This document shows, one piece after another, positions 3,799 through 45,292 of a stretch of DNA of 45,381 nt. The translations under genes and the position numbers were made by a program. The stretch is from Candidatus Saccharimonadota bacterium (GTDB lineage: Bacteria > Patescibacteriota > Saccharimonadia > Saccharimonadales > Saccharimonadaceae). A model generated the notes under the pieces. That model was not told where the DNA came from, made no database searches, and was given only the letters and a program-made list of their open reading frames with translations. Where the stretch lies: assembly GCA_013332965.2 (NCBI GenBank), contig JABCPR020000048.1, positions 1 through 45,381 of the forward strand, read 5' to 3'. Each line of letters opens with the position of its first letter. Within the stretch, counting starts at the first letter, position 1.

Positions 3799-4003
3799 AA
3801 AAATCTCCTTGTTAAGGTTTGTGTATTTTTTGGTCGGGAAGACCCCTAATTTTTTTATCAAAGTTGTGTTATTAAAACACAGTTAATCAATTTCAAGGTC
3901 GTATGCGACCATTTCTATTCTAACATAGAAACAAATTATGGGAAGAGTAATGTGATAGAATGGAGTTAATAAAAAATGAGCAGAATTGGGGAAATGATTA
4001 GCG

Positions 4004-39941: not shown

Positions 39942-40477
39942 AATTAGGAAGAACGATTGCGGGTGGTCGTGAGGCGGTCGAGAGCGATTTGGTACGACAA
40001 AAATTTATTGAGAAGCGTGAACGAAAAAAACGATTACAGTTGATTTTGTTGGGTGCGGTAATTGTGGCGACTGTAGTATCTGGAACTTTAATAGTCCGAG
40101 GGGCTCTGCAAAAAACGCCAACAGTAAACCAGAAGCGAGTGGAGGTGGAAAAATATACGCCAACTGTAGAAATTATTGATGAAGACACTTCGAATATGAT
40201 TACAGAACGCATTAAACAGTACGTGGCTCTAATGGAAAAAGATGTACGTGATGTGGGAATGAGAGTAACGAAGGCGATTATTCCAGCTGGTAAGGCACGA
40301 GAAGTGGATATTTATCTTGAGGGTAGGGATGAGTATTATAAATGCAATTTAGATAGGGGGACGGCTGAAACGGTTGAAGATATCGTGAGGATGATAGGAT
40401 ACCTCAAAAAACAGGGAGTGATGGCAGGATATGTGGATGTGAGGCTTGAGGGGCGAGCATATTATAAGGCAAAATAG
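39938..40477 (+). CDS. Bitopic protein, truncated FtsQ/DivIB-like
   Basis: Single TM helix, C-terminal YVDVRLEGRAYYK resembling the FtsQ YxDxR motif; follows murG. Confidence 0.65.
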   Translation: MKLGRTIAGGREAVESDLVRQKFIEKRERKKRLQLILLGAVIVATVVSGTLIVRGALQKTPTVNQKRVEVEKYTPTVEIIDEDTSNMITERIKQYVALMEKDVRDVGMRVTKAIIPAGKAREVDIYLEGRDEYYKCNLDRGTAETVEDIVRMIGYLKKQGVMAGYVDVRLEGRAYYKAK

Positions 40478-40519
40478 TGTGTAGAACTAATAGATAAAAT
40501 ATGAATAAATAAATTAATT

Positions 40520-40545
40520 AATCCCCGGGTGACCGGGGATTTTTT
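40520..40545 (+). terminator. Intrinsic terminator ending the ftsI operon
   Basis: AATCCCCGG-GTGA-CCGGGGATTTTTT. Confidence 0.88.
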
Positions 40546-40872
40546 AGGGTTATGCGAGGCTGCTAAGTCCTGTATTAAAGATGGGCTGGATTTGGTTCTG
40601 GCCTGTTCGGTTTGTTCGGTTTTTAAAATAAGGGAAACTACAGAAAAGATTTGGTTTTTTGACGAAGGGCGGATTTTTAATAAAAAAATGTATGTTTGTT
40701 AAAAAATAGCTGTATTTATTAAAAAATAAAAGTAGGGTACTTGCAATAAAAATAACTTGGAGAGATTAGATTTTTCAAGTGTGTCCTGTTCGGTTATTTA
40801 GAAAATGGAATAATAAAAACGCAAGAAGGGAATAATTATATTATTAATTTTTTTATAGATACAGACAAAAAG

Positions 40873-41074
40873 TTTTGCACAGTTGTGGAAAACTGTATAA
40901 AATAATTGTTTTAAAATAACAGGGGTGGGATTAGTCCTTATATATTCATACATAACGGGGGAGATTTGCATTATATGTGAACATGTGGAAAAGTTTGTTG
41001 AAAAATGTCCGAAAAAATGTGAAAAAGCACTTGCATTATGTGCGTAATGGCGCTAAACTAATGTCAGTGGATAA
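40873..41074. promoter_or_regulatory. Cluster of DnaA-box-like repeats around a sigma70 promoter
   Basis: TGTGGAAAA (40884, 40984), TGTGAAAAA (41018), AGTGGATAA (41066); TTGCAT-17-TAAACT at 41031-41059. Confidence 0.55.
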
Positions 41075-41547
41075 CAAAACAAAAACCCACAAACAAAAAG
41101 ATTAAATATGAATAATCAAGCGACAAAAACTACGAAAGAAGAAATGGATTACGAAGTAATTCGCTTGGTGAAGAAGAGCGGCAGTTAAAAAGGTATCTTT
41201 TTGGCACATTAAAAAATGTTTGAGGTCGGTCAACTAGGAGTCTTGGCGCGCGTTTAGGAAACGCGTCATCAAAACCACTAGCACATCTATAAACACCTCC
41301 CAATTAACTCAACAAACAACCTACACAATAAGTCTCTCAACGGTTATAGTCATATATTCAGTCTTGCATTGGATGAAACTATAGCAGCATTTATTGTATA
41401 GAAAAACAATTAAGAAATTGCAGTAATAAATCTTAATTAACAAACAAAAAACATACAAAAACAAACACGCTAAAATTTCTAGTTGAGCGATCTCAAACTA
41501 AAAAGCTTCTATATAACAGAGATGAAAATCTTTGATATAATAGAGGT

Positions 41548-42426
41548 ATGGAAGAGCTTCATAAGCCAGTGTTACTATCAGAAGTTCTCGAGATTTTGCA
41601 GCCTAGCGCGGGCGAGTCGTATTTAGACTTGACGGCAGGTTATGCAGGTCATGCGGGAAAGATTTTGGCGGTTACGCGGAATTATAAAGAGTCGGTCTTA
41701 GTGGATCGAGACATTAATGCAATTAATTTTCTATCGAAGAAGTACCCAGATGGTGAATTCGGACTTGAAATGTTGCACGAAGATTTTTATAATGCGGCGC
41801 AGTCTTTAATCGAGTGTGGAAAAACTTTTGATATGATATTAGCTGATTTTGGAGTATCTTCACCGCAACTGGATAATTCAGAGCGAGGTTTCTCATTTAT
41901 GCACGAAGGGGAACTGGATATGCGAATGGATCAAACGCAGGAGTTGTCAGCGGAAACGATTGTGAATCACTGGTCGGAGAAGAAACTGATTGAAATCTTC
42001 GAACGATATGGTGAGGAATCATCGGGGCTGGCAAGAAAACATGCGAGAGAAATCGTATATAACAGACCATGGAAAACTACTAAAGAGCTTGCGGATGCTT
42101 TAAGTCCGAAAGGATGGTTTGGGAAGCACCCAGCAACCAAGGTTTTTCAAGCAATTCGGATTGCAGTAAACGAGGAGCTTTCGATTATCGAGAATACTCT
42201 ACCGTTGATTCCGAAACTACTGAAACCAAATGGACGCATTGCGATTATTACTTTTCATAGCCTAGAGGATAGGTTGGTGAAGCAGTATTTTAAGCAGGTG
42301 AGTTCACTTGGAGAAGAGTCTGAACTGGAAATTCTGACAAAAAGTCCAATTGTTGCGGGAATGGATGAATTAGTTATCAATCCAAGAGCAAGAAGCGCAA
42401 AACTGAGAGCAGCTAGAAAAATTTAG
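41548..42426 (+). CDS. rsmH: 16S rRNA m4C1402 methyltransferase
   Basis: HKPVLL, DFGVSSPQLD..ERGFSF, FQAIRIAVNEEL, FHSLEDR and NPRARSAKLR motifs. Confidence 0.97.
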   Translation: MEELHKPVLLSEVLEILQPSAGESYLDLTAGYAGHAGKILAVTRNYKESVLVDRDINAINFLSKKYPDGEFGLEMLHEDFYNAAQSLIECGKTFDMILADFGVSSPQLDNSERGFSFMHEGELDMRMDQTQELSAETIVNHWSEKKLIEIFERYGEESSGLARKHAREIVYNRPWKTTKELADALSPKGWFGKHPATKVFQAIRIAVNEELSIIENTLPLIPKLLKPNGRIAIITFHSLEDRLVKQYFKQVSSLGEESELEILTKSPIVAGMDELVINPRARSAKLRAARKI

Positions 42427-42511
42427 GATAAGAAATTAGACTAAAAATAGCTTGAACGGGAGTGCTGAAGGTTTTTGGGATGATAAAAATAAAAATAAAA
42501 AAGGAGGCTAT

Positions 42512-42577
42512 ATGCCAAAGCAAATCATTGTAAAAAACGCTTCTCGAGCACAGAAAATCAAAGTTAATTTTCGCTAG
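42512..42577 (+). CDS. 21-aa basic peptide MPKQIIVKNASRAQKIKVNFR (candidate leader peptide)
   Basis: AAAGGAGG RBS after an A-rich tract, immediately before a structured region. Confidence 0.5.
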   Translation: MPKQIIVKNASRAQKIKVNFR

Positions 42578-42620
42578 AGAAAGTTAATTCTAAATCTAGG
42601 TTGATGTAAATCTCCTGATT

Positions 42621-42840
42621 TTGAATGTATCAGGCCTTAGGGCCTGCTATCGGGAAGCTTTCGGAAACGACGGAGTCCCGACACGGTTGTAAAGTCAACT
42701 GGGAAACGTGTTTAATAAAAAAAGATATGACCTTCCCGGAAGCCCTTATTAGCGATGCGGTGGTGCGGCTAATAAGAGCTTTCGGACTATGATTACGGGG
42801 CAACTTCGCTAAACGAAGGCGCACCGACCAAGATACACAA
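42621..42840 (+). ncRNA. Candidate multi-stem, pseudoknotted structured RNA
   Basis: GC-rich island closed by TGTATC/GATACA, five internal helices, a GAAA tetraloop and loop-tail complementarity. Confidence 0.55.
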
Positions 42841-42952
42841 ATAAAACAAACAACAAAAACAATATAAACATAAATTCAGGTTAAACTCTAATTAAAATCT
42901 TTATTTTTGCTGAGAAGATTTTAGCGAGAGTTTACATAAAGCGAGGAAAATA

Positions 42953-43363
42953 ATGCAGAGTGGAGCAAGAACTATGCGCCAACAGGGTTTTGGCGGTTTT
43001 AATGGCATGCGCGGTATCAATGATCGTCCCCAAACTAGCTATTTAGCTAATTCTGTAAGTTCTGGTTATTCACGCAATCGAAATACGGTGCGTCATCAAG
43101 CGCGTGGAATCGGTCGTTTTTCAGCAATTGCTATTTTGGTTATTGAGATTTTCACAATCGGACTTTTTTATGTCTCTCAACAGGGTAATGTGACAAGTTA
43201 TGATTACAATATGAACAAGATTGATACGCAGATTGCAAACTTGGAAGCCGAGCGTGACGATTTAAAAGTTGAGCAGGCGAGATTGAACTCGATTGCAAAG
43301 AATGCGAAGTCAACGGTGGCGGCCAATATGGAAACCGCACAAGTTGCTGGCTATGCTGACTAA
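42953..43363 (+). CDS. FtsL-like cell division protein
   Basis: Cytoplasmic tail, one TM helix, leucine-zipper coiled coil; lies downstream of rsmH. Confidence 0.7.
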   Translation: MQSGARTMRQQGFGGFNGMRGINDRPQTSYLANSVSSGYSRNRNTVRHQARGIGRFSAIAILVIEIFTIGLFYVSQQGNVTSYDYNMNKIDTQIANLEAERDDLKVEQARLNSIAKNAKSTVAANMETAQVAGYAD

Positions 43364-43516
43364 TTTTGAAGAATAAATATTATTGACTGAGTGATTCTTG
43401 GTGTTATCGTATAATTAACACTAACATTTTCTTATTCTCTATAAATATGGTAAAATAGGAGTAATTTTTACGCATTAAGCCTGTTTCTAGGATGGGCAAA
43501 ACAGGGAAGGAGAAAA

Positions 43517-45292
43517 ATGGCGGAGACCCAAGAGAAGATTATTCAGATCGCAGGCTCAATCACGGTAGATGAATTGGCGGAGGCACTCGGGCTTTCGGTA
43601 ACCGCATTGATTGGCGAACTTTTTAAGCAGGGAATTATGGCGACAATTAATCAGCGCCTAGATTTTGATACTGCAAGCTTGATTATCGATGAACTGGAAA
43701 TTAAGAACGTAAAACTTGAACGTAAGAATACGGCAACAAAGCCATCGAATTTTCATAGTGAATTATCAGAGAAGGCCGTGTTGCGACCACCAGTAGTGGC
43801 GGTGATGGGGCACGTTGATCACGGTAAGACAACTTTACTAGACTCGTTGCTACACAAAAAGACAGTTGAGGGTGAGGCTGGTGGGATTACTCAACATATC
43901 TCGGCTTATCAGTTGAAACATGATGACCGCCTAATTACGTTCCTAGATACTCCTGGACATGAGGCCTTTGCGGCGATTCGTCAACACGGTGCGATGTTGA
44001 CCGATATTGTGGTGATTGTAGTAGCAGCAGATGATGGTGTGAAACCACAGACTGTGGAGGCAATTAAGTTTGCTCAGAGCGCAAACGCGAAGATTATCGT
44101 GGCAATTAATAAGATTGACCGCGAAGGGGCTGATATTCCGCGTACCATGGCGGATTTGGCGCAACACGGCTTGCAGCCTGAGGAGTGGGGTGGCGATATT
44201 ACAATGGTGCCGATTTCAGCCAAGCGTGGGGATAACCTAGAAAAATTGTTGGATATGATTTTACTTACGGCTGATCTTGAAGAGTTGAAGGCAGATGTGG
44301 AAATCCCAGCTGAGGGACTTGTGATTGAGTCTCACATGGAGGTTGGAAAAGGCTCTGTGGTGAATTTGCTGGTAACTGGCGGTGAACTAAAGACTGGTAA
44401 ATTTGTGGTGGCTGGAAGCGCTTATGGCAAGATTCGTACGATGATGGACTTCCGCGGTAAGCCAAAGGGGAAAGCGACTCCGTCGACTCCAGTGACTGTA
44501 ACTGGCTTTAAGGAATTGCCTAACTTCGGTGATCGTTTTATCGAGGTGAAGGATGAAAAGACTGCGAGAAAGCAGGCACTACTGAACGCTCAAGTGGAGG
44601 CTTCAGAGACGGCTTCGGCAAACGTAACTTCTACGGATCTTCTTCGCATGATGAATACGGCGGATAATTCAAAGGGCTTTAATGTGATTATTAAAGGTGA
44701 TGTGCTTGGCTCCGTGACATCCGTAATCGATTCTTTGAAGATGATTGATACAAAGGGTGAGATTTCTCTAAATATTGTATCTTCTGGCGTGGGTGACGTG
44801 ACCGAAAATGACGTCTATATGGCGGAAGGTGATAATACCGTGGTGTATGGTTTTAACGTGAATGTGCCAACTAATATTGTGAAGTTAGCAGCGAGAGATG
44901 GCGTGGAGATTCGCAATTATCGCGTGATTTATGAACTACTAGATGACGCTAAGGCTTCAATGGAGAACTTGCTTGATGATGAGGTAGTTGAGGAAGAAAC
45001 TGGCGAAATGAAGATCAAGGGCGTGTTTAGGACCGAACGTACGGCGATTATTGCTGGTGGTGAGGTGTTAACTGGCCGCGTTGGGGCTGGGATGCTGGGG
45101 CGAGTCTACCGCAATAAAGAGCTGATTGGCGAGGTTTCAGTAGATTCAGTGCAGAAGGAAAAAATGCAAGTGACCGAGTTGGTGGCTGGTGAAACGGGTG
45201 GTATTGCCTTCAATCTGGAGAAGAAGCTGGTGATTGAGCTTAATGACCGCGTGAAGTTCTTTACAAGGGAATTGCGTAAGAAGAAGCTCTAA
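43517..45292 (+). CDS. infB: Translation initiation factor IF-2 (short N-terminus)
   Basis: RPPVVAVMGHVDHGKTT, GGITQHI, DTPGHEAF and NKID motifs; AAGGAG RBS. Confidence 0.97.
   Translation: MAETQEKIIQIAGSITVDELAEALGLSVTALIGELFKQGIMATINQRLDFDTASLIIDELEIKNVKLERKNTATKPSNFHSELSEKAVLRPPVVAVMGHVDHGKTTLLDSLLHKKTVEGEAGGITQHISAYQLKHDDRLITFLDTPGHEAFAAIRQHGAMLTDIVVIVVAADDGVKPQTVEAIKFAQSANAKIIVAINKIDREGADIPRTMADLAQHGLQPEEWGGDITMVPISAKRGDNLEKLLDMILLTADLEELKADVEIPAEGLVIESHMEVGKGSVVNLLVTGGELKTGKFVVAGSAYGKIRTMMDFRGKPKGKATPSTPVTVTGFKELPNFGDRFIEVKDEKTARKQALLNAQVEASETASANVTSTDLLRMMNTADNSKGFNVIIKGDVLGSVTSVIDSLKMIDTKGEISLNIVSSGVGDVTENDVYMAEGDNTVVYGFNVNVPTNIVKLAARDGVEIRNYRVIYELLDDAKASMENLLDDEVVEEETGEMKIKGVFRTERTAIIAGGEVLTGRVGAGMLGRVYRNKELIGEVSVDSVQKEKMQVTELVAGETGGIAFNLEKKLVIELNDRVKFFTRELRKKKL

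What the first reader, a model, noticed from the sequence alone, without database searches (positions are those of the whole stretch)
42614..42952. ~220-nt multi-helix, probably double-pseudoknotted RNA between rsmH and ftsL
Seen: closing helix TTG..TGTATC (42621-42631) / GATACACAA (42832-42840); AGGCC-TTAG-GGCCT; TCGGGA (42650) / TCCCGA (42676) capped by TCG-GAAA-CGA; CACG/CGTG enclosing GTTG-TAAAGT-CAAC plus unpaired TGGGAAA that can pair with TTCCC (42733); GGAAGC/GCTTTC + CTTATTAGC/GCTAATAAG whose loop GGTGGTGCG can pair with CGCACC-G-ACC (42820-42829); and CTTCG-CTAAA-CGAAG. An alternative hairpin CCTGAT/ATCAGG (42614-42634) competes with the closing helix. An A/C-rich linker and a long AT hairpin then precede the ftsL RBS. 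I could not match it to RNase P, tmRNA, SRP, T-box or intron cores. Inference: an undescribed riboswitch, ribozyme-like or scaffold RNA in the division locus.
Basis: partly seen in the sequence, partly recalled or inferred. Interest (0 to 1): 0.8.

Follow-up and report, generated by a model that had tools for sequence, protein, structure and literature searches.

The report
New structured RNA upstream of ftsL
A conserved, folded RNA that matches no catalogued family sits in front of the cell-division gene ftsL in one genus of tiny oral and gut bacteria (Nanosyncoccus), just after an overlooked 21-residue gene; its function is still unknown.

Summary
The conserved core is window 42626-42793 on the + strand. 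It has a short hairpin P1, a variable P2 region carrying RAGUY and GUGU, an A-rich linker, the near-invariant AUGACCUUC, a long hairpin P3 and an NCUAWG tail. P1 and the outer stem of P3 covary strongly: 97.3% of cells are paired, with 124 double-change cells against 32.8 in shuffles.

A covariance model finds one copy in 139 of 151 genomes of the genus. It finds none in 147 genomes of 94 sister genera, and none in 149 genomes from other genera of the order. Rfam 15 gives no credible hit for the window or for three diverse homologs.

It is widespread in the order.

Best reading (about 0.5): a cis-acting leader or sensor RNA of the micropeptide-ftsL transcript. Ligand, protein partner and mechanism are unknown. 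I judge it a new RNA family of a familiar kind.

The parts
41548..42426 (+). rsmH (16S rRNA m4C1402 methyltransferase, MraW family), the upstream gene
   Evidence: PF01795, E 9.5e-86; ORF list
42480..42511 (+). Conserved A-rich leader (UGAUAAAAAUAAAAA) and strong Shine-Dalgarno AAAGGAGG (GGAGG at 42503-42507) of the small gene. It may also hold a promoter, which was not shown.
   Evidence: Conserved in the alignments. The SD lies upstream of every sORF listed. The sigma-70 scan found no site here.
42512..42577 (+).
   Evidence: Present in every related locus that holds the spacer; 48 distinct peptides with synonymous and conservative changes. Profile hits in 102 of 301 class-level genomes, one per genome. 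No Pfam or NCBIfam family.
42578..42625 (+).
   Evidence: Length and sequence vary widely among relatives; helix test
42626..42793 (+). Conserved RNA core (match to covariance model R1)
   Evidence: 74.8 bits, E 2e-14, the only match in the window on either strand
42631..42646 (+). P1 hairpin CAGGCC-UUAG-GGCCUG
   Evidence: 6-bp helix, 96.9% paired, 4 of 6 pairs with changes on both sides;
42650..42681 (+). P1a: extra hairpin UCGGGA...UCCCGA with a GAAA tetraloop tip. It is specific to the window's subclade (the same rows as the 13 of 71 sequences with the type-i P3 loop).
   Evidence: Stem variants CGGGAA/GUCCCG, CGGACC/GGUCCG, CGGGUC/GACUCG and CGAACG/AGUUCG. Absent from most of the genus.
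42682..42713 (+). P2 region: local stem(s) presenting RAGUY (AAAGUC at 42691-42696), followed by the near-invariant GUGU(UU) at 42708-42713
   Evidence: [AG]AGU[UC] in 67 of 71 and GUGU in 68 of 71 unique sequences. The local stem differs between subclades. No covariation support in the test.
42714..42726 (+). A-rich linker
   Evidence: Alignments
42727..42735 (+). Near-invariant AUGACCUUC, unpaired in the model
   Evidence: AUGACCUU in 69 of 71 unique sequences; invariant columns. Not a conserved ORF start.
42736..42785 (+). P3 long hairpin (outer stem CCGGAAGC/GCUUUCGG, inner stem CUUAUUAGC/GCUAAUAAG, tip GAUGCGGUGGUGCGG)
   Evidence: Outer 6 bp are 97.7% paired, with 5 of 6 pairs changing on both sides. 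Every homolog folds a 12-20-bp hairpin at this place.
42786..42793 (+). 3' tail ACUAUGAU (family consensus NCUAAG or NCUAUG)
   Evidence: CUA[AU]G in 54 of 71 unique sequences
42796..42826 (+). P4 hairpin (CGGGGC/GCACCG with a UUCG-CUAAA-CGAA tip), present only in the window's close clade
   Evidence: 89.8% paired in 8 sequences, with one compensatory pair (UA in 5, CG in 3)
42830..42882 (+). A/C-rich, G-poor linker
   Evidence: Sequence. Across 46 unique linkers the composition averages 49% A.
42883..42933 (+). AT-rich hairpin AAACUCU...AGAGUUU, specific to the close clade
   Evidence: Conserved in the alignment; absent from more distant relatives
42941..42949 (+). ftsL ribosome-binding region GCGAGGAAA
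   Evidence: The motif (A/U)GCGAG(G/A)A precedes the ftsL start in the 46 linkers listed
42953..43363 (+). ftsL-like gene (FtsL/DivIC-type, weak family scores), the downstream gene
   Evidence: TIGR02209 E 0.0054 and PF04977 E 0.0083, both below their cut-offs. Synteny holds in relatives.

Best explanation
Window 42626-42793 (+ strand) encodes a member of a previously uncatalogued structured RNA family confined, as far as searched, to one Saccharibacteria genus. Record titles call it Candidatus Nanosyncoccus.

Shown:
- The architecture is a hairpin P1; a variable P2 region that keeps RAGUY and GUGU unpaired; an A-rich linker; the invariant AUGACCUUC; a long hairpin P3 whose sequence is free to change as long as it pairs; and an NCUAWG tail.
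- There is one copy per genome. It always lies on the coding strand, between a conserved 21-aa gene and ftsL.

Inferred: the RNA is transcribed as part of the micropeptide-ftsL mRNA. It acts in cis as a leader that binds a small molecule or a protein, using the invariant single-stranded nucleotides held together by P1, P2 and P3. Binding then sets how much FtsL is made, most likely at the level of translation or mRNA stability, because no terminator follows it and Rho was not found.

The ligand or partner is unknown, and so is the direction of control.
For: Fold. MFE z is -5.47 on the + strand.

Covariation.
- P1 plus the outer stem of P3 are 97.3% paired. They show 124 double-change cells against 32.8 +/- 7.1 in shuffles (0 of 500 shuffles reach this), and slid controls are 24-55% paired.
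- RNAalifold on the model-fitted alignment finds both-side changes in 11 of 12 pairs.

Strand. There are many G-U and U-G pairs (for example GU in 30 and 16 sequences, UG in 12). On the other strand these would be A-C mismatches.

Distribution.
- 139 of 151 genus genomes match, 98 of 102 among high-quality ones; 138 have a single match and one has two.
- Of five genus genomes without a hit that I inspected, two carry divergent copies, one is cut by a contig end, and two gave no ftsL match at all.
- 0 of 147 genomes in 94 other genera of the family match, and 0 of 149 from other genera of the order.

Context.
- rsmH, the spacer and ftsL are syntenic in 80 of the 82 related loci (L001-L082). The other two loci end at a contig edge.
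- The RNA tail lies 35-214 nt (median 72.5) from the ftsL AUG in 46 unique linkers.
- No terminator-like site lies between the RNA and ftsL in the window. The organism does use classic terminators, as the sequence after the gene ending at 40477 shows (printed).

RNA rather than coding. Frames opened at the AUG of AUGACC contain stops in many relatives, and the fourth codon changes so as to keep P3 paired.

Sensor-like pattern. AUGACCUU is kept in 69 of 71 unique sequences while the adjoining helices vary freely.
Against: - There are no transcript data.
- I found no conserved expression platform. The linker to the ftsL RBS varies in length and sequence. Pairing of the core with the ftsL RBS is ordinary (-6.3 kcal/mol, rank 16 of 41 gene starts in the window).
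- There is only one copy per genome and one gene context, so no regulon points to a ligand.
- Sister genera manage with the same micropeptide gene plus a simple hairpin and a short spacer. The RNA is therefore not needed for ftsL expression in general.
- The P2 local stem failed my covariation test: 66.3% paired against 66.0% in shuffles, with no double changes.
- No tertiary contact could be verified.
Confidence: 0.5

Rival explanations
1. It is a stable non-coding RNA in its own right, cut out of the operon transcript. It acts in trans or as a small RNP, possibly together with the basic 21-aa peptide encoded just upstream.
For: The 21-aa product is basic, has no acidic residue and is translated from a near-perfect SD. 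Gene and RNA are always adjacent in the genus. The invariant single-stranded motifs could be a protein-binding site. The linker to ftsL varies and shows no recognisable platform.
Against: The peptide gene occurs across the order without this RNA: 102 of 301 genomes carry the gene, while the RNA was found in no genome outside the genus. No promoter-like or terminator-like site flanks the RNA. No second target with conserved complementarity was found: the one strong hit, the infB RBS, is limited to the close clade.
Confidence: 0.2
2. It is a constitutive mRNA element with no ligand. It could be a folding, processing or stability module, or a ribosome stand-by or decoy site, that tunes translation of ftsL after the highly translated small gene.
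For: The core reads as an A-rich tract plus AUGAC. This resembles the SD-less, A-rich ftsL start regions of sister genera, such as ...AAAAAUAUGACAUAC in L087. A strong hairpin begins 9 nt after that AUG. The invariant ACCUUCC is pyrimidine-rich and resembles an anti-SD: the 16S rRNA 3' end of a genus member reads ...UUACCUCCUUU.
Against: Invariance of about 25 scattered unpaired nucleotides across a genus whose rsmH proteins have diverged to 62-71% identity is more than a stability hairpin usually needs. The frame behind the AUG is not conserved. The resemblance to sister-genus start sites is a short motif and could be chance.
Confidence: 0.2
3. It is a diverged member of a known RNA family (T-box, RNase P, a riboswitch class, the mraW motif or a ribozyme) that the models missed.
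For: The P3 tip GGUGGUGCGG loosely recalls the T-box sequence, and CACCA after P1 recalls a tRNA 3' end. Both resemblances are from memory, not from a tool.
Against: Rfam 15 (4227 models) gives no hit at gathering score. At E<=10 it gives only eukaryotic miRNA, snoRNA and lncRNA noise. Three diverse homologs gave 0 hits at E<=10. RNase P RNA is found elsewhere at 196 bits. GGUGGUG and CACCA do not occur in the same subtypes.
Confidence: 0.03
4. It is a chance fold or a short protein-coding region (MTFPEAL...) rather than a functional RNA.
For: An ORF of 55 aa (42625-42792) overlaps the region, and the sub-frame from AUG 42727 ends at the UGA of CUAUGA.
Against: Homologous frames hold in-frame stops in many relatives. 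Compensatory changes keep the helices. Wobble positions of 'ACC UUC' do not vary.
Confidence: 0.02

Closest known systems
Orphan riboswitch candidates and cis-regulatory leader motifs found by comparative genomics, e.g. the lysM-TM7 motif of Weinberg et al. 2017 (PMC5737381; I read only passages returned by a term search)
   Same: A structured element in an apparent 5' UTR of a cell-envelope or division gene in TM7/Saccharibacteria. It has conserved unpaired nucleotides, covarying stems and a narrow taxonomic range, and its ligand is unknown.
   Different: No sequence or structure match: Rfam, which I recall includes those motifs, gave nothing. The gene context is different (ftsL rather than lysM). 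The term search found no mention of ftsL or mraW in that paper.
mraW RNA motif (Actinobacteria; recalled from memory as an Rfam family, not seen in any call)
   Same: A structured RNA associated with the mraW/rsmH end of the division cluster.
   Different: As I recall it, that motif lies upstream of mraW in Actinobacteria. This RNA lies downstream of rsmH and upstream of ftsL in Saccharibacteria. No Rfam model matched.
T-box leader RNAs
   Same: A multi-helix leader whose conserved loop nucleotides include a GGUGGU-like string in the window's subtype.
   Different: No match to any Rfam model, T-box included. No terminator or antiterminator is present. The downstream gene is not an aminoacyl-tRNA synthetase or amino-acid gene. 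The GGUGGUG tip is present in only 13 of 71 unique family members.
Ribosomal-protein leader RNAs (autoregulatory rRNA mimics)
   Same: A highly expressed small basic protein is encoded next to a structured RNA on the same transcript. This would suit feedback binding.
   Different: The RNA lies downstream of the small gene, not upstream. There is no extended similarity to a genus member's 16S rRNA (best shared words 7-12 nt). The small protein matches no ribosomal protein family.
GAAA tetraloop / 11-nt receptor tertiary module (motif recalled from memory)
   Same: 5'-YAUGA...NCUAAG-3' flanking P3 resembles UAUGG/CCUAAG. The window also carries a GAAA-capped hairpin (P1a).
   Different: No helix continues beyond the would-be receptor, and a 5-nt CCUUC bulge intervenes. 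The window itself has CUAUG rather than CUAAG. P1 loops are not uniformly GAAA. This is untestable with these tools and remains a lead only.

Membership tests
Any Rfam 15 family (4227 models, including RNase P, tmRNA, SRP, T-box, riboswitch classes and self-cleaving ribozymes) | Covariance-model score at or above the curated gathering threshold | tested here: not met
   Window: only two tRNAs elsewhere reach the threshold. In 42400-43000 at E<=10 there are 7 hits, best E 1.3, all 40-75 bits below their thresholds and all eukaryotic families. Homologs L082, L045 and L019 gave 0 hits at E<=10.
Bacterial RNase P RNA | It would be the genome's RNase P RNA | tested here: not met
   RF00010 matches elsewhere in the nearest genome (G001 contig 21, 196.3 bits, E 1.5e-64).
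T-box riboswitch | Stem I with specifier loop plus T-box/antiterminator sequence competing with a terminator, upstream of aminoacyl-tRNA or amino-acid genes | tested here: not met
   No Rfam T-box match. No terminator-like site between the RNA and ftsL. The downstream gene is ftsL.
Riboswitch (general kind) | Conserved aptamer: covarying helices around highly conserved unpaired nucleotides | tested here: met
Riboswitch (general kind) | Location in the 5' UTR of the regulated gene, on the same strand | tested here: inconclusive
   Position and strand fit in all loci. No transcript data could be obtained.
Riboswitch (general kind) | Expression platform: terminator, or SD-sequestering alternative pairing | tested here: not met
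   No terminator. The linker is variable. Pairing of the core with the ftsL RBS is unremarkable. Rho was not found in 3 of 3 genus genomes.
Riboswitch (general kind) | Specific ligand binding | not testable with these tools
   Needs in-line probing or similar.
Self-cleaving ribozyme | Match to a known catalytic core, or demonstrated cleavage | tested here: not met
   No Rfam ribozyme model matched. Cleavage itself cannot be tested here.
Protein-coding small ORF starting at AUG 42727 | Open frame and amino-acid conservation across relatives | tested here: not met
   In-frame stops occur in many relatives, and residue 4 varies with P3 pairing.
Independent sRNA gene | Own promoter and intrinsic terminator | tested here: not met
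   No promoter-like or terminator-like site flanks 42626-42793 on the + strand in a simple consensus scan. The scan is crude.

The most novel reading that the evidence does not exclude
The RNA is a genus-specific sensor, either a riboswitch for a metabolite or second messenger or the receptor for the adjacent 21-aa peptide. It gates synthesis of the divisome protein FtsL, and so ties cell division of an obligate epibiont with an 0.8-Mb genome to a signal such as host-derived precursors or cell-envelope status. It would be built on an aptamer fold with no known relative.
Probability: 0.3. Interest if true: 0.8.

Novelty: new variant of a known kind. Interest (0 to 1): 0.6.

Why it matters
Saccharibacteria have tiny genomes with little non-coding DNA. 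A 130-170-nt RNA kept in almost every species of a genus is therefore very likely to do something. No RNA control of ftsL turned up in my searches, and little is known about how these obligate epibionts time division. A leader RNA with a ligand-pocket-like conservation pattern in front of ftsL, next to a micropeptide gene conserved across the order, gives two concrete and cheap experimental handles on that question. At the least it is a well-supported candidate for a new Rfam family, with about 140 genomes and strong covariation. It also corrects annotation: the small gene is below the size that, as far as I know, gene callers usually report.

Tried and rejected
1. Known family: Rfam at gathering score and at E<=10 on the window and three homologs gave nothing credible.
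2. RNase P: found elsewhere in the nearest genome.
3. DNA-level search: BLAST found only 2 full-length matches in 61 relatives, so I moved to synteny and a covariance model.
4. ORF reading of AUGACC...: rejected.
6. Any conserved upstream partner for ACCUUCCC: duplex energies against the region upstream of the core are no better than shuffles (mean z -0.14, n=70 unique sequences). G-rich tracts in one subclade could pair with it, but they are not general.
7. Kissing contact between the P2 loop (UAGAGU) and the P3 tip (GCUCUG): complementary in the 42 of 71 sequences with the type-ii tip. The same P2 motif is kept in sequences with short or different tips, and the single tip variant (GCACUG in L068) is not compensated. 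Unproven.
8. P2 local stem CGGU/ACCG: 66.3% paired against 66.0% in shuffles, with 0 double changes, on a MAFFT alignment of 21 sequences. Not supported as aligned.
9. Rho-dependent control through the C/A-rich linker: the Rho RNA-binding domain PF07497 was not found in 3 of 3 genus genomes, while 9 of 14 control genomes ring.
10. rRNA mimicry (RsmH substrate or r-protein site): only 7-12-nt shared words with a genus member's 16S rRNA.
11. Sequestering of the infB RBS: the core pairs with GGGAAGG of the infB RBS at -13.7 kcal/mol, the best of 41 gene starts. But infB follows ftsL only in the close clade, and 4 of 5 other genus genomes have a different RBS (-2.9 to -5.4 kcal/mol).
12. Homologs outside the genus: none found with R1. 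Large searches use stricter filters, so weak relatives could be missed.
14. RNAalifold on the fitted alignment added no further helices.

Full report
WHAT IS THERE

The window is from a Saccharibacteria (TM7) genome. Related contigs found through the upstream protein are titled Candidatus Nanosyncoccus / TM7 G3 HMT-351. Nearest genomes are 0.5-1.2 Mb.

The gene order is:
- rsmH, 41548-42426 (PF01795, E 9.5e-86).
- A 526-nt spacer.
- An FtsL/DivIC-like gene, 42953-43363, with weak family scores below cut-off.
- infB.

The spacer is not empty of genes. At 42512-42577, behind a near-perfect Shine-Dalgarno (AAAGGAGG), lies a 21-codon ORF, MPKQIIVKNASRAQKIKVNFR.

IS THE FOLD MORE THAN CHANCE?

Positions 42600-42850 fold to -84.1 kcal/mol (z -5.47; 0 of 200 dinucleotide shuffles as good). 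The reverse strand scores nearly the same (z -5.17), so energy alone does not give the strand.

KNOWN FAMILIES

- Rfam 15 at gathering thresholds finds only two tRNAs, elsewhere in the window.
- At E<=10 the region gives 7 hits. The best E is 1.3, and all are eukaryotic miRNA, snoRNA or lncRNA models far below threshold.
- Three diverse homologs gave 0 hits at E<=10.
- RNase P RNA is elsewhere in the nearest genome at 196 bits.

RELATIVES

A nucleotide search found full-length matches in only 2 of 61 related genomes. I therefore collected loci by synteny.
- The rsmH protein returned 80 loci, 78 of them Saccharibacteria.
- Counting also L001-L004, an ftsL-like gene follows rsmH in 80 of 82 related loci. 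The other two end at a contig edge.
- The spacers range from about 250 to 1050 nt. Nearly all share the string YAUGACCUUCC, followed by a hairpin of entirely variable sequence and then GGNCUAAG.
- Read as protein, the frame from that AUG has stop codons in many relatives, and its fourth codon changes in step with the pairing partner. The conservation is therefore at the RNA level.

STRUCTURE

I aligned 59 of the 66 unique core sequences. I left out L023, L031, L033, L049 and L077 as divergent, and the window stood in for its near-identical copies L001 and L009. I tested two helices.
- P1 is a 6-bp hairpin: 96.9% paired, with 4 of 6 pairs changing on both sides.
- The outer 6 bp of P3 are 97.7% paired, with 5 of 6 pairs changing on both sides.
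- Together they are 97.3% paired, with 124 double-change cells against 32.8 +/- 7.1 in shuffles (0 of 500 reach it). Slid controls are 24-55% paired.
- Each homolog folds a 12-20-bp hairpin at the P3 position.
- Frequent G-U and U-G pairs (for example GU in 30 and 16 sequences, UG in 12) would be A-C mismatches on the other strand. The RNA is therefore read from the + strand, the coding strand of both neighbours.

Between P1 and P3 lies a region whose local stems differ between subclades, but which keeps RAGUY (67 of 71 unique sequences) and GUGU (68 of 71). The commonest local stem (CGGU/ACCG) did not pass my covariation test: 66.3% paired against 66.0% in shuffles.

The P3 tip comes in three forms:
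- UUACUUAUNGCUCUG in 42 of 71 unique sequences.
- GAUGCGGUGGUGCGG in 13 of 71, the window's type.
- Short or other loops in 16 of 71.

The window's subclade also has two extras: a GAAA-capped hairpin P1a (42650-42681), whose stem covaries among that subclade, and, in the closest clade only, a hairpin P4 (42796-42826) with one compensatory pair.

I tested these on 8 close relatives that differ from the window by about 14%.
- The closing helix is 58.7% paired.
- The loop pseudoknot loses two pairs in 5 and 6 of 8 sequences, and its target forms the 3' strand of P4.
- The GGGAA/UUCCC pseudoknot never varies. Its GGGAA arm is absent outside this clade.
- Across 70 unique spacers, the region upstream of the core is no more complementary to ACCUUCCC than shuffled sequence (mean z -0.14).

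DISTRIBUTION

A covariance model of the core (R1) gave these results.
- It hits the window once, at 42626-42793: 74.8 bits, E 2e-14.
- I searched 79 sources: the window plus 78 loci. I left out the near-identical L001, L002 and L005-L011, and also L083-L085. This gave 74 matches, and none fell in the five loci from other genera.
- Whole-genome searches found one copy in 139 of 151 genomes of the genus, 98 of 102 among high-quality ones. One genome had two matches.
- Of five genus genomes without a hit that I inspected, two carry divergent copies plus the small gene, one is cut by a contig end, and two gave no ftsL match at all.
- Outside the genus I found nothing: 0 of 147 genomes of 94 other genera of the family, and 0 of 149 genomes from other genera of the order. 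These large searches use stricter filters, so 'not found', not 'absent'.

THE SMALL GENE

The small gene is present in every related locus that holds the spacer. It occurs as 48 distinct peptides with synonymous and conservative changes.

In five other genera a homologous ORF of 19-21 aa (MPIQVK.SSR.Y.VKV..) sits in the same place. It is followed only by a simple hairpin and a short A-rich spacer before ftsL.

A profile search found it once per genome in 102 of 301 class-level genomes. All hits were in the window's order and none in the other orders sampled.

The gene matches no Pfam or NCBIfam family.

HOW IT MIGHT WORK

Position, strand, single copy and the lack of any terminator-like site between the RNA and ftsL point to a leader on a micropeptide-ftsL transcript.
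- The organism does use classic terminators elsewhere, as the sequence printed shows.
- The RNA tail lies 35-214 nt (median 72.5) from the ftsL start in 46 unique linkers. I dropped 18 loci where my RBS pattern failed.
- Invariant unpaired nucleotides framed by freely covarying helices are what ligand- or protein-binding RNAs look like.

Against a textbook riboswitch:
- I found no expression platform.
- Core-RBS pairing is ordinary: -6.3 kcal/mol, rank 16 of 41 gene starts.
- Rho was not found (0 of 3 genus genomes).
- A striking 7-bp match to the infB RBS is confined to the close clade.
- I found no rRNA mimicry.

I therefore commit, at about 0.5, to a cis-acting sensor or leader of ftsL with unknown effector. 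The main rivals, at about 0.2 each, are a processed stable RNA or RNP with the micropeptide, and a ligand-free translational or stability element.

NOVELTY

I found no description of this RNA.
- Listings from five searches showed nothing relevant.
- Term searches inside Weinberg 2017 (PMC5737381) and Narunsky 2024 (PMC11109978) found no ftsL, mraW, rsmH or Saccharibacteria motif of this kind. I read only the passages those term searches returned, not the supplements.

It is a new RNA family of a familiar general kind.

Noticed in passing
window 42512-42577 (+), with SD at 42501-42508: A conserved 21-aa basic micropeptide gene (MPKQIIVKNASRAQKIKVNFR) lies between rsmH and ftsL. It is present in all related loci that hold the spacer (48 distinct peptides). 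Homologs of 19-21 aa sit at the same place in other genera. A profile finds one copy in 102 of 301 class-level genomes, all in the window's order. It matches no Pfam or NCBIfam family. It may deserve its own report.
   Followed up: partly
window 42804-42818; L019, L020, L052, L061 and L080 (P1a tips); L087 hairpin loop: The hairpin module UUCG-CUAAA-CGAA recurs at different positions in different subclades: the P4 tip in the window, the P1a tip in others. CGCUAAAC also sits in the loop of the post-sORF hairpin of another genus. It resembles the 3' end of the small gene (...UUCCGCUAA).
   Followed up: partly
window 40478-41547: About 1.07 kb upstream of rsmH has no ORF of 80 aa or more, and no mraZ was noticed. 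Two blocks (about 41203-41347 and 41437-41507) are conserved across the genus at 70-90% identity. There is no Rfam hit, and the first block folds no better than shuffles (z -0.79).
   Followed up: partly
window 43490-43519 (infB RBS ACAGGGAAGGAGAAAAAUG): GGGAAGG is perfectly complementary to the RNA core CCUUCCC (-13.7 kcal/mol, the best of 41 gene starts in the window). It is conserved only in the close clade where infB follows ftsL. Four of 5 other genus genomes have a different RBS.
   Followed up: yes
L087, L089, L086 and L090 (other genera), ftsL start regions: In sister genera ftsL starts without a Shine-Dalgarno, behind an A-rich tract, often as ...AAAAUAUGACA.... This resembles the RNA's invariant AAAAUAYAUGACC. 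In Nanosyncoccus, ftsL instead has a GCGAGGA RBS.
   Followed up: no
L069, L073 and L079, upstream of the core: Extra P1-like hairpins (AUGGGCC-GAAA-GGCUCACCA and variants) are repeated upstream of the core in some long spacers. L079 gives a second partial model match at 3922-3967.
   Followed up: no
L022, L041, L043, L044, L050, L053, L062 and L074, just 5' of P1: One subclade carries G-rich tracts (e.g. GGGGGAUGGGGGAGAC) directly upstream of P1. These could pair with CUUCCC but are not general.
   Followed up: partly
genomes G001, G109 and G112: The Rho RNA-binding domain (PF07497) was not found in 3 of 3 genus genomes that are 95-100% complete.
   Followed up: yes
window about 40521-40548: A classic intrinsic-terminator-like hairpin, CCCCGGGUGACCGGGG followed by UUUUUU, lies after the gene that ends at 40477 (sequence printed). 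The organism appears to use such terminators, and none follows the RNA.
   Followed up: no
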